Shown here: positions 32,317 through 32,869 of the stretch, piece by piece
Layout of the letters: the number at the start of each line of letters is the position of its first letter
How positions within the stretch are numbered: the stretch's first letter is position 1
The notes under the pieces: model-generated
Told to the model about the DNA's origin: nothing
Seen by the model: the letters and a program-made list of their open reading frames with translations, nothing else
Database searches by the model: none
Made by a program: the position numbers and the translations under genes
From: Escherichia coli
GTDB taxonomy: Bacteria > Pseudomonadota > Gammaproteobacteria > Enterobacterales > Enterobacteriaceae
Reading direction: 5' to 3' (one strand)
NCBI RefSeq assembly: GCF_016903815.1
Contig: NZ_CP069973.1
DNA length: 64,000 bases

Positions 32317-32529
32317 ATGACCCGTAATCGTGCTGAACGTCGCCATCATATGGCGCGATTAAAAAAAATCCGCTGCCGTTATCGCACTGCAGGCGATGGA
32401 AGCAAAAAAGCATCAGGTATTTGCTTTCGTACTCCCTGTATTTGTTCTTGTTGGATGTGTGGGCATCGACGCTATCATAATGGTCCCCGCGTATCGGAAA
32501 TTCGTGCAAAAGCACGCTATGCGAATTAA
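32317..32529 (+). CDS. Hypothetical small basic Cys-rich protein (70 aa)
   Basis: AGGAG SD 7 nt upstream of ATG; MTRNRAERRHHMARLKKIRCRYR...; no family recognised. Confidence 0.35.
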   Translation: MTRNRAERRHHMARLKKIRCRYRTAGDGSKKASGICFRTPCICSCWMCGHRRYHNGPRVSEIRAKARYAN

Positions 32530-32590
32530 GGGAAAATGATGAACTATTTTAAGGAAGCACATTTTTAGAACTCTTAACAGGAGACTAAAA

Positions 32591-32869
32591 ATGTCCACGC
32601 TTAATACGCGTAAAGATAGGGATCGTAATGGTAAAGCGAAGCCACATAATCATTCAGGGATCCCAACACTTACAGGTAAATGGCGTCACCCTTCAATGGA
32701 TTGTTGGGTAAACTACAGTACACCGGGCGATCATGAATGGAAGCGGCTCTATACTACGCTTCGCCGTCGCGCAGATGATCGACGCCAATGTCATCGGGTA
32801 ATGCAGGGGGATGATCCAGAAGGAATCGTCTGGTTCCCGGACTGTTATCCACAAATTTACTACTACTAA
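32591..32869 (+). CDS. Hypothetical protein (92 aa)
   Basis: AGGAG SD 8 nt upstream of ATG; followed by hairpin accggttggtgcggcactgaccggt; no family recognised. Confidence 0.4.
   Translation: MSTLNTRKDRDRNGKAKPHNHSGIPTLTGKWRHPSMDCWVNYSTPGDHEWKRLYTTLRRRADDRRQCHRVMQGDDPEGIVWFPDCYPQIYYY

What the first reader, a model, noticed from the sequence alone, without database searches (positions are those of the whole stretch)
32317..32869. Two small SD-preceded ORFs of unknown function downstream of the TA pair
ORFs of 70 aa (Arg/Cys-rich, MTRNRAERRHHMARLKK...CICSCWMCGHRR) and 92 aa (basic, ending ...DCYPQIYYY) each have a canonical AGGAG Shine-Dalgarno at optimal spacing, and the second is followed by a hairpin. 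They resemble nothing I can place. They could be small regulatory or nucleic-acid-binding proteins, or a further toxin/immunity-like component of the islet.
Basis: seen in the sequence. Interest (0 to 1): 0.4.

Follow-up and report, generated by a model that had tools for sequence, protein, structure and literature searches.

The report
Two hairpin-locked small mobile genes
The two small reading frames are real, conserved genes of unknown function that travel between phages, plasmids and bacterial defence islands, and each has its ribosome-binding region folded into a conserved hairpin, a control feature nobody has described.

Summary
Both ORFs exist as described in this E. coli fabY–fdhE islet. 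They are real genes. Homologous pairs in Escherichia, Klebsiella, Salmonella, Edwardsiella and Lelliottia keep both frames at 42–69% identity, with synonymous sites saturated and pN of 0.14–0.43.

ORF1 (70 aa, pI 11, Arg-rich N-terminus, invariant C-x-C-S-C-W-M-C-G) belongs to PHROG 4499, the family of phage T5 gene T5.055. It occurs in about 450 phage records, 152 plasmids and at least 118 bacterial species, mostly as a lone gene. ORF2 (92 aa) is a rare, almost entirely Enterobacterales family that usually follows ORF1 but also occurs alone.

Neither depends on the adjacent HigB-like/NadS pair, and no toxin, antitoxin or defence profile matches either one.

The new finding is that the "canonical" Shine-Dalgarno of ORF1 is the 3' arm of a two-tier leader hairpin. 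That hairpin is conserved across clades with compensatory changes, favours the sense strand and has no Rfam match. ORF2's Shine-Dalgarno and AUG are locked in a similar way.

The cassette is dispensable: about half of islet-bearing E. coli carry a 393-bp deletion across both genes.

Function is unknown. The best reading is a pair of translationally gated, probably nucleic-acid-binding accessory proteins of mobile-element origin.

The parts
32269..32313 (+). ORF1 leader: a two-tier hairpin. The outer 9-bp stem is AGAACUCCU/AGGAGUUUU and the inner stem-loop is GCGGCA-UAG-UGCCGC. The 3' outer arm contains the Shine-Dalgarno.
   Evidence: RNA folds. The same architecture precedes ORF1 homologues in unrelated contexts. 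Leader z-scores differ from controls, the sense strand is favoured and covariation is seen in the beta-proteobacterial clade.
32305..32309 (+). ORF1 Shine-Dalgarno AGGAG, 7 nt before the ATG; predicted paired
   Evidence: Sequence; unpaired probability about 0.01 at 15-60 C.
32317..32529 (+). ORF1: 70 aa, pI 11.1, PHROG 4499 / T5.055 family. It has an Arg-rich N-terminal helix (RAERRHH..RLKK.R) and a Cys cluster (TPCICSCWMCGH).
32361..32368 (+). A8 homopolymer inside ORF1. It is the site of frameshifted variants and the left edge of the common deletion.
32368..32760 (.). Segment of about 393 bp (ORF1 codon 18 to about ORF2 codon 57) that is missing in the deletion allele carried by roughly 1,500 complete E. 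coli genomes
32559..32594 (+). ORF2 translation-initiation hairpin. ACAUUUUUAG pairs with CUAAAAAUGU, which includes the AUG; an inner CUCUU/AGGAG stem holds the Shine-Dalgarno (32579-32583).
   Evidence: Inverted repeat I4. Folds of 16 ORF2 leaders have a median z of -2.5, and lone ORF2 genes have perfect SD-sequestering hairpins.
32591..32869 (+). ORF2: 92 aa, pI 9.3, a rare family. It has a conserved N-terminus (MSxFNTRKDRxxxGKxKPH) and a conserved C-terminal half (W.RL.TT..RRA.DR...V..G.DP.G..W....P..Y[YF][YW]).
32878..32904 (+). 12-bp hairpin after ORF2 with no U-tract. Homologous cassettes have canonical intrinsic terminators at this position.
32940..32960 (+). Weak terminator-like site (GCGGTAAAGCTGC followed by a T-rich tail)
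32214..32311 (.). Copy 2 of a 98-nt direct repeat, comprising the 3' end of nadS plus the ORF1 leader
30397..30494 (.). Copy 1 of the 98-nt repeat (88% identical). It ends in an orphan, perfect version of the leader hairpin (30454-30494) with no ORF1 behind it, lying between the convergent 617-aa gene and the esterase gene.

Best explanation
ORF1 and ORF2 form a small, horizontally mobile accessory cassette that is independent of the neighbouring HigB-like/NadS pair. ORF1 is a chromosomal member of the phage T5 T5.055 / PHROG 4499 family. It is a 70-aa, very basic protein with an Arg-rich N-terminal helix and an invariant four-cysteine cluster. Inference: it binds metal and nucleic acid. ORF2 is a partner gene found almost only in Enterobacterales. 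Both genes are gated at translation initiation. ORF1's Shine-Dalgarno is the 3' arm of a conserved two-tier leader hairpin, and ORF2's Shine-Dalgarno and AUG sit in a second conserved hairpin. Protein is therefore made only at a low level, or only when something opens the hairpins. Shown here: the genes are real, their family placement, their mobility and genomic contexts, and the conserved sense-strand leader structure. Inferred: nucleic-acid binding, the gating effect on translation, and a role in phage/plasmid-host conflict. That last point rests on residence next to Dnd, Zorya-like, Avs4, AbiG/AbiH, type I R-M and TA genes, and in T5-like phages.
For: The genes are real. Homologous pairs are conserved at 42-69% identity with pS of 0.62-0.9 against pN of 0.14-0.43, and the exact proteins occur on at least 1000 contigs each. 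Family placement: PHROG 4499 at E 8e-14; T5.055 and AKFV33 orf055 in 446 phage records; 152 plasmids, 114 of them conjugative; at least 118 species genomes with the CSCWMCG motif. Independence from the TA pair: the ORF1-ORF2 pair occurs without it in L016, L018, L023 and L025; ORF1 is alone in about 70 of 80 species loci; ORF2 is alone in L011, L013 and L104. Genomic contexts are defence or mobile islands. Leader structure: 85 leaders have a median z of -3.4 against -0.06 for 150 control gene starts (p 1.8e-17), and the SD window is less accessible (p 4.5e-7). The sense strand is more stable than the antisense in 50 of 61 leaders (p 1.5e-8). A sequence-only alignment of 18 beta-proteobacterial leaders gives 95% paired cells, 9 of 14 pairs compensatory and 0 of 500 shuffles reaching the score. 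The architecture table shows 34 distinct inner stems. Between the window and L008, the leader (84% identical) and the spacer (86%) are better conserved than the coding regions (71% and 69%). ORF2's initiation region is also locked.
Against: There are no expression, binding or phenotype data. AlphaFold models are weak (pLDDT 66 and 55), and nothing matched in PDB by profile or by fold. No convincing sigma-70 promoter was found upstream of the leader in the window or in three other loci. The predicted SD pairing is so stable (unpaired probability about 0.01 up to 60 C) that the genes could be nearly silent. The cassette is dispensable in E. coli, given the deletion allele in about 1,500 genomes and occasional frameshifts. 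The leader statistics use related, non-independent sequences. A single covariance model did not unite the clades.
Confidence: 0.5

Rival explanations
1. Autogenous control. ORF1 is an RNA-binding protein whose Arg-rich N-terminal helix and Cys cluster recognise the inner hairpin of its own leader. It would stabilise or open the SD-sequestering structure, in the way ribosomal-protein leaders or the phage lambda N-boxB pair work.
For: The Arg-rich N-terminus (RAERRHH..RLKK.R) is nearly invariant. A 15-19-nt GC-rich hairpin always sits in the leader. The leader accompanies ORF1 in phage, plasmid and chromosomal copies. The hairpin is too stable to open unaided.
Against: Lone ORF2 genes also carry SD-sequestering hairpins without ORF1, so locking does not need ORF1. 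The loop sequences differ between clades and are not GNRA-like. No binding test was possible. The resemblance to N peptides comes from memory, not from a tested alignment.
Confidence: 0.2
2. The cassette encodes one or two toxic small effectors, kept silent by locked initiation regions as in type I toxin mRNAs and released on phage infection or plasmid loss. In other words, it is a new abortive-infection or TA-like module.
For: The cassette lies in TA- and defence-rich islands, next to Avs4/AbiGi, Dnd, a Zorya-like SNF2+EH-signature pair, AbiH, HipBA, Fic and type I R-M genes. Both genes are translationally locked. The genes are small and basic.
Against: There is no antitoxin partner: both genes occur alone. 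No PADLOC or Pfam hit was found. The proteins are hydrophilic (GRAVY -1.0 and -1.3), unlike type I toxins. No antisense promoter was detected. ORF1 is carried by lytic T5-like phages. The cassette is frequently deleted without a trace of addiction.
Confidence: 0.15
3. The hairpins act at the DNA or transcript level rather than on translation, for example as terminators or insulators of upstream genes or as recombination boundaries of the cassette. On this view the overlap with the Shine-Dalgarno is incidental.
For: In the window the leader directly follows the nadS stop. An orphan perfect copy sits between two convergent genes, where a bidirectional terminator would be expected. The 98-nt direct repeat ends exactly at the hairpin, which suggests recombination there.
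Against: The 3' arm carries the SD in most leaders regardless of what lies upstream. No U-tract follows the hairpin. The sense strand is significantly more stable and has more G-U pairs than the antisense (137 against 77), which argues for an mRNA structure. Plasmid and phage copies keep the hairpin.
Confidence: 0.1
4. In E. coli the two ORFs are decaying remnants of an old acquisition with no current function.
For: A 393-bp deletion allele is present in roughly 1,500 of about 2,800 islet-bearing complete genomes. The remnant has diverged by about 9%. Frameshifted ORF1 variants occur at the A8 and A6 runs. PGAP does not always call ORF1.
Against: Intact alleles are 98.6-100% identical across 1,269 complete genomes and occur on at least 1000 contigs, against 1-7 contigs for the frameshifted forms. 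Purifying selection is seen across genera. The leader and spacer are conserved above the coding level.
Confidence: 0.05

Closest known systems
Phage T5 gene T5.055 (AKFV33 orf055) / PHROG 4499, function unknown
   Same: ORF1 aligns over residues 3-67 at about 50% identity. It shares RRHH..R.K..R, G34 and TPCxCSCWMCG. The phage gene also has an anti-SD/SD stem (AUUUCUCC/GGAGAAAU).
   Different: The phage proteins carry an extra acidic, aromatic C-terminal tail of about 35 aa. They sit among tRNA genes in a lytic phage and have no ORF2 after them (tblastn of ORF2 against phages found only one unverified Salmonella contig).
SD-sequestering mRNA leaders (RNA thermometers such as ROSE/fourU; ribosomal-protein autoregulatory leaders)
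   Same: The Shine-Dalgarno is the 3' arm of a conserved hairpin with compensatory changes, upstream of a small basic protein gene.
   Different: No Rfam family matches in the window or in 20 other loci. Predicted pairing does not melt between 15 and 60 C, so it does not behave like a thermometer. There is no homology to ribosomal proteins.
Lambda-type N protein / boxB (Arg-rich peptide binding a small hairpin)
   Same: Both have an N-terminal Arg-rich helix, and ORF1 has a 15-nt GC-rich hairpin in its own transcript. This resemblance is recalled from knowledge of N peptides and was not tested.
   Different: The loops are A/U-rich tri- to pentaloops that vary by clade, not GNRA-like. There is no nut-site context. 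ORF1 has a Cys cluster that N lacks. No sequence homology was detected.
Type II toxin-antitoxin pairs (the adjacent HigB-like/NadS module; RHH-PIN modules in the same hotspot)
   Same: Two small adjacent same-strand genes in a TA-rich variable region between fabY and fdhE.
   Different: The two genes are not obligately paired. They are separated by 41-66 nt, match no toxin or antitoxin profile, and both products are basic.
Type I toxin mRNAs (hok, tisB, etc.)
   Same: The translation-initiation region is locked by stable local structure.
   Different: The products are hydrophilic rather than membrane peptides. No antisense RNA gene is evident.

Membership tests
PHROG 4499 / T5.055 family (ORF1) | Significant full-length match to the family profile | tested here: met
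   phrog_4499 at E 8e-14, residues 3-67 against profile positions 6-73 of 88; tblastn to 446 phage records at about 50% identity.
PHROG 4499 / T5.055 family (ORF1) | Conserved RRHH..R.K..R N-terminus and C-x-C-S-C-W-M-C-G cluster | tested here: met
   40-sequence alignment A5: R9, R19, G34, C43, C45, C48 and G56 are invariant; H10, H11, C41, W46 and M47 are at least 90% conserved.
PHROG 4499 / T5.055 family (ORF1) | Known biochemical function | not testable with these tools
   The family is annotated 'unknown function', and no paper mentions T5.055 or the motif.
Type II toxin-antitoxin module (ORF1/ORF2 as a pair, or as extra components of HigB-like/NadS) | Obligate co-occurrence of the partner genes | tested here: not met
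   ORF2 follows ORF1 in only about 9 of 80 species loci. ORF2 is alone in L011, L013 and L104. The pair is found without the TA genes in L016, L018, L023 and L025.
Type II toxin-antitoxin module (ORF1/ORF2 as a pair, or as extra components of HigB-like/NadS) | Homology to a known toxin or antitoxin fold or family | tested here: not met
   No Pfam, NCBIfam or PADLOC hit at E<=1; nothing in PDB by profile; nothing by Foldseek.
Type II toxin-antitoxin module (ORF1/ORF2 as a pair, or as extra components of HigB-like/NadS) | Toxicity neutralised by the partner | not testable with these tools
   Needs expression experiments.
Type I toxin | Small hydrophobic membrane peptide | tested here: not met
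   GRAVY is -0.99 and -1.31; 19 and 16 basic residues.
Type I toxin | Cis- or trans-encoded antisense RNA | tested here: inconclusive
   The consensus scan found no minus-strand promoter in 32233-32900. A consensus scan cannot exclude one.
SD-sequestering cis-regulatory leader RNA | The Shine-Dalgarno is base-paired in a structure more stable than chance | tested here: met
   The window leader has z -4.6 (76-nt leader region) or -4.2 (121-nt fold). Across 85 leaders the median z is -3.4 against -0.06 for controls.
SD-sequestering cis-regulatory leader RNA | The structure is conserved with compensatory changes and a strand bias | tested here: met
   Alignment A8: 95% of cells paired, 9 of 14 pairs compensatory, 0 of 500 shuffles reach the score. 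The sense strand is more stable than the antisense in 50 of 61 leaders. A cross-clade sequence alignment failed, so cross-clade conservation rests on the per-sequence folds.
SD-sequestering cis-regulatory leader RNA | Demonstrated effect on translation, and a known trigger | not testable with these tools
   Needs reporter assays and structure probing.
RNA thermometer | The SD becomes accessible over the physiological temperature range | tested here: not met
   Predicted unpaired probability of the SD is 0.00-0.02 from 15 to 60 C; the median across 62 leaders moves only from 0.22 to 0.30. This is a prediction only.
Any Rfam 15 family | Covariance-model match at the leader | tested here: not met
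   No hit at the ORF1 leader (32269-32313) at E<=10; the orphan copy (30455-30493) drew only a chance-level miRNA match (mir-532, E 8.2, 15.9 bits against a 75.2 gathering score). Gathering-threshold scan of 20 other loci gave only tRNAs and a group II intron.
Lambda N / boxB-type ARM-hairpin pair | GNRA-like pentaloop hairpin and nut-site context | tested here: not met
   The loops are UAG, AUUGU, AAUGC, UAAUG, GAAG and others, differing by clade. There is no nut-like context.

The most novel reading that the evidence does not exclude
The T5.055-family gene and its two-tier leader would be an undescribed class of 'locked' small-effector unit, with ORF2 as an add-on found almost only in Enterobacterales. 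It is shared by lytic T5-like phages, conjugative plasmids and defence islands. Its translation would be unlocked by a specific cue such as infection, DNA entry or RNA processing. The Cys4, Arg-rich product would act on nucleic acid in phage/plasmid-host conflict. The leader would then be a new cis-regulatory RNA class, possibly the protein's own operator.
Probability: 0.2. Interest if true: 0.7.

Novelty: new variant of a known kind. Interest (0 to 1): 0.45.

Why it matters
If this reading is right, a small-protein family that is often left unannotated would gain three things. ORF1 is missed by PGAP in some genomes and has no annotated feature at 10 of the 12 plasmid matches listed. The first gain is a defined family: the T5.055 type, spread across T5-like phages, about 150 plasmids and more than 100 proteobacterial species. 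The second is a conserved regulatory RNA that is absent from Rfam. The third is a clear experimental handle, namely stem-disrupting and compensatory mutants of a roughly 45-nt leader. The family's position beside Avs4, AbiG, Dnd, Zorya-like, R-M and TA genes, and inside a lytic phage, makes it a reasonable candidate for phage-host or plasmid-host conflict biology. For this window specifically, the result removes the two ORFs from the TA module. It also shows that the fabY–fdhE gap is a recombination hotspot with presence, deletion and duplication alleles.

Tried and rejected
- **Protein profiles.** Pfam, NCBIfam and PADLOC scans of both ORFs found nothing. PHROGs found nothing for ORF2.
- **Solved structures.** Profile searches of PDB sequences found nothing at E<=10.
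- **Structure prediction.** AlphaFold gave pLDDT 66 and 55. A Foldseek search of PDB returned only a noise hit at E 5.9. No further fold searches were run because the models are weak.
- **ORF2 exhaustive search.** An HMMER search of 1.84 billion representatives gave only 24 hits, some of them low-complexity false positives such as P0047, P0061 and P0062.
- **Distant ORF2 relative.** A profile-profile comparison of ORF2 with a look-alike 105-aa protein upstream of ORF1 in Rhodocyclales was not significant (E 0.12), so homology is not claimed.
- **Cross-clade leader alignment.** MAFFT put the stems out of register and RNAalifold found no pairs, or only the inner stem.
- **Covariance model.** Model R1, built from the beta-proteobacterial clade, did not recover other clades or the window. 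I did not build an alignment fitted by hand, because pair counts on it would be circular.
- **Thermometer hypothesis.** Rejected on predicted melting behaviour.
- **Promoter search.** Consensus scans upstream of the leader were negative in the window, L016, L018 and L050.
- **Upstream neighbour genes.** Pfam and PHROG scans of conserved neighbours (the 211-241-aa protein and others) were uninformative.
- **Literature.** Searches for the motif, T5.055, protein accessions and the T5 tRNA-region small proteins found nothing relevant.
- **dN/dS within E. coli.** Uninformative, with only 3 substitutions.
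Full report
**Setting.** The window is an E. coli chromosome. The finding lies in the variable gap between fabY (yiiD, ending at 28094) and yiiE/yiiF/fdhE/fdoIHG. The gap holds the following genes, in order:
- a 617-aa orphan gene (28471-30324);
- an alpha/beta-hydrolase on the minus strand (30493-31476);
- a HigB/RelE-like 103-aa gene (31630-31941);
- a NadS-family HTH antitoxin (31942-32232);
- the two ORFs of the finding.

**Observation.** ORF1 (32317-32529, 70 aa) and ORF2 (32591-32869, 92 aa) are exactly as quoted. Each has AGGAG 7 nt before its ATG. A 12-bp hairpin (32878-32904) follows ORF2 but has no U-tract.

**Are they genes?** Yes.
- Megablast finds the 701-bp region in 2,813 of 5,426 complete E. 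coli genomes. It is full-length, at 98.6-100% identity, in 1,269 of them.
- RefSeq annotates both as hypothetical proteins, but PGAP sometimes leaves an intact ORF1 uncalled.
- The exact window proteins occur on at least 1000 public contigs each.
- Diverged copies of the pair keep both frames in a syntenic Klebsiella spallanzanii-type locus (L008/L024), Salmonella (L006, L016), Edwardsiella (L018, L037), Lelliottia/Citrobacter (L023, L049), Kosakonia and K. oxytoca. Identity is 51-69% for ORF1 and 42-59% for ORF2.
- Synonymous sites are saturated (pS 0.62-0.9) while pN is 0.14-0.43. Where dN/dS can be computed it is 0.06-0.39.

The cassette is nevertheless dispensable. Most of the other islet-bearing E. 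coli genomes carry a deletion of about 393 bp, from ORF1 codon 18 (at the A8 run) into ORF2. Their remnant has diverged by about 9%. Rare ORF1 frameshift variants at the A8 and A6 runs are seen on 1-7 contigs each.

**What ORF1 is.** Pfam, NCBIfam and PADLOC find nothing. PHROGs places ORF1 in phrog_4499, annotated 'unknown function', at E 8e-14.
- tblastn finds about 50%-identical homologues in 446 phage records, chiefly T5-like Demerecviridae. There the gene is T5.055 / AKFV33 orf055, embedded among tRNA genes. The phage protein carries an extra acidic C-terminal tail.
- A profile search finds 283 proteins.
- A scan of one genome per species finds at least 118 relatives with the exact CSCWMCG peptide. 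They lie in gamma-, beta- and alpha-proteobacteria, with a few elsewhere.
- 152 plasmids, 114 of them conjugative, carry a homologue.
- Conserved features are R5, A6, R8, R9, H10, H11, R14, K16, R19, G34, T39, P40, C41, C43, S44, C45, W46, M47, C48, G49 and E61.
- The protein has a pI of 11.1, 19 Arg+Lys and 6 Cys.
- AlphaFold gives a helical but low-confidence model (pLDDT 66). PDB searches by sequence profile and by fold return nothing.

**What ORF2 is.** ORF2 belongs to a very small family. It has only 24 representatives at E<=1e-3 among 1.84 billion proteins, and some of those are spurious.
- The conserved parts are an N-terminal MSxFNTRKDRxxxGKxKPH and a C-terminal W.RL.TT..RRA.DR...V..G.DP.G..W....P..Y[YF][YW]. 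The middle is variable.
- In the species scan an ORF2 homologue follows ORF1 only in Enterobacterales, in about 9 of 80 loci. Everywhere else ORF1 stands alone.
- Mixta has two tandem ORF2 paralogues.
- ORF2 also occurs without ORF1, after HipBA plus an IS element (L011), after a Fic gene (L013), and in a viral contig (L104).
- The two genes are therefore a facultative pair, not an obligate couple.

**Context.** The pair, or ORF1 alone, sits in the following places:
- beside Dnd genes, a Zorya-like SNF2/EH-signature pair and CbtA/CbeA;
- beside AlpA and YfjJ-type island genes, AbiH and type I R-M genes;
- between AbiGi and Avs4 on plasmid pSD_88;
- at the ends of IMG/VR proviral contigs;
- next to tRNA genes.

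The association with HigB-like/NadS is confined to the syntenic fabY–fdhE locus of Escherichia, Klebsiella and Pseudocitrobacter. An Escherichia clade genome (L025) has ORF1-ORF2 at that locus without the TA pair. The 'further TA component' reading is therefore not supported.

**The leader hairpins.** This is the main new result.
- In the window the ORF1 Shine-Dalgarno is the 3' arm of a two-tier hairpin (32269-32313). The outer stem is AGAACUCCU/AGGAGUUUU and the inner stem-loop is GCGGCA-UAG-UGCCGC. The fold has z -4.2.
- The same architecture precedes ORF1 homologues in unrelated contexts and clades, with quite different sequences. It consists of an anti-SD arm, an internal loop, a GC-rich inner hairpin and an SD arm 5-12 nt before the start codon. 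It is seen in Enterobacterales, Pantoea/Erwinia, Vibrio, Massilia, Rhodocyclales, Nitrosospira and Methylobacterium, on plasmids, and in weaker form in T5-like phage.
- Across 85 leaders the median folding z-score is -3.4, against -0.06 for 150 other gene starts from the same loci (Mann-Whitney p 1.8e-17). The SD window is less accessible (p 4.5e-7).
- The sense strand folds better than the antisense in 50 of 61 leaders (p 1.5e-8) and has more G-U pairs (137 against 77). This argues for an mRNA structure rather than a DNA palindrome.
- On a sequence-only MAFFT alignment of 18 beta-proteobacterial leaders, 95% of cells pair, against 79% in shuffles and 47-64% with slid partners. Nine of 14 pairs show compensatory changes, and 0 of 500 shuffles reach the covariation score.
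- Between the window and L008 the leader (84% identical) and the ORF1-ORF2 spacer (86%) are better conserved than the coding regions (71% and 69%) or the downstream flank (46%).
- No Rfam 15 family matches in the window or in 20 other loci.

ORF2 is gated too.
- In the window, hairpin 32559-32594 pairs the AUG and holds the SD in an inner stem.
- Sixteen ORF2 leaders have a median z of -2.5.
- The three lone ORF2 genes have near-perfect SD-sequestering hairpins.

Predicted SD accessibility stays at about 0.01 from 15 to 60 C, so an RNA-thermometer mechanism is unlikely. Some active opening, or simply very low constitutive translation, is implied.

Caveats:
- The sequences are related and therefore not independent.
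- Cross-clade alignment by sequence failed.
- A clade-specific covariance model did not generalise.
- No convincing promoter was found upstream of the leader.

**Mechanism.**
- Shown: the cassette is real, mobile and under purifying selection; ORF1's family is assigned; the structured initiation regions are conserved and strand-specific.
- Inferred: the hairpins restrict translation, since anti-SD pairing is an established mode of control.
- Inferred: ORF1 binds a metal through its Cys cluster, and binds nucleic acid through its Arg-rich helix.
- Inferred: the genes serve phage/plasmid-host conflict, judged by the company they keep.

I give about 0.5 to this overall reading. The rivals are:
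- ORF1 autoregulating through its own leader (0.2; weakened because lone ORF2 is also locked);
- a silent toxic effector or abortive-infection module (0.15; no partner, hydrophilic products, carried by a lytic phage);
- hairpins acting as terminators or recombination boundaries (0.1; the orphan copy and the 98-nt repeat speak for it, the strand bias and SD involvement against it);
- decaying remnants (0.05).

**Comparison with what is known.** ORF1 is a member of PHROG 4499 / T5.055, which has no known function. The leader works like known SD-sequestering leaders but belongs to no described family. The resemblance to lambda N/boxB is only a lead. The features that define TA-module membership were tested and not met.

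**Verdict.** The genes themselves are catalogued hypotheticals. The conserved locked leaders and the distribution across phages, plasmids and islands are new and testable. Interest is moderate (0.45), and the novelty class is a new variant of a known kind.

Noticed in passing
window 30397-30494 and 32214-32311: A 98-nt direct repeat (88% identical) brackets the esterase plus HigB-like/NadS block. Each copy holds a nadS 3'-end-like stretch plus the ORF1 leader hairpin. Copy 1 ends in a perfect orphan hairpin (30454-30494) with no ORF1 behind it. Copy 1 is present only in strains that also carry the 617-aa-gene segment and is absent in FDAARGOS_144. This suggests recombination at the leader.
   Followed up: partly
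window 28471-30324: A 617-aa ORF has no Pfam, NCBIfam or PADLOC match. In other E. coli genomes (L001, L005) the same gene is truncated by an IS transposase and annotated as a pseudogene.
   Followed up: no
window 31488-31514, 33172-33198, 33611-33637 (and 33149-33227 / 33588-33666): A 27-nt motif (ATCTGGAAAnCGCCTCGCAAAnnTAAA) recurs upstream of the HigB-like/NadS operon, yiiE and yiiF. The yiiE and yiiF upstream regions share a 79-nt repeat (81% identical). This may be a common operator or promoter for the three small regulator/TA modules. A weak Thr-leader Rfam hit there (E 0.73) looks like noise.
   Followed up: no
window 31601-31630: The best sigma-70-like promoter (TTGTTA-16-TATAAT) ends 2 nt before the ATG of the HigB-like gene. 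Either the mRNA is leaderless or the start or promoter call is wrong.
   Followed up: no
window 32361-32368 and 32406-32411: The A8 and A6 runs inside ORF1 are where public E. coli variants shift frame (P0008, P0012-P0016, P0021-P0029). These could be real slippage alleles or sequencing errors.
   Followed up: partly
L078 1099-1416, L087/L099 2575-2892, L103 982-1299, L095 2521-2892: In Rhodocyclales a conserved 105-aa basic protein (MARTFRRKRERHEYYW...RWYRKV..R.R..NDRMLRRWLADPEFDP...NWSWW) lies about 90 nt upstream of the ORF1 homologue. Its C-terminal half resembles ORF2, but hhalign is not significant (E 0.12).
   Followed up: partly
L028 3375-3969 (Mixta sp.): Two tandem ORF2 paralogues follow one ORF1 homologue.
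   Followed up: no
L018 4245-4880; L105 1943-2668; L111 1993-2676: A conserved 211-241-aa protein with no Pfam or PHROG match sits directly upstream of ORF1-ORF2 in Edwardsiella and in several proviral contigs. It may be a third cassette gene in that clade.
   Followed up: partly
L112 (plasmid pSD_88) 3949-10072: A lone ORF1 homologue with the two-tier leader lies between an AbiGi-family gene and Avs4, a few kb from psiB and the ParB-like leading-region genes.
   Followed up: partly
L020/L021 (Vibrio parahaemolyticus): An ORF1 homologue lies among many short same-strand ORFs (GNAT, metallo-beta-lactamase fold, His-phosphatase), an arrangement typical of integron cassette arrays. A 45-aa ORF overlaps its stop codon.
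   Followed up: no
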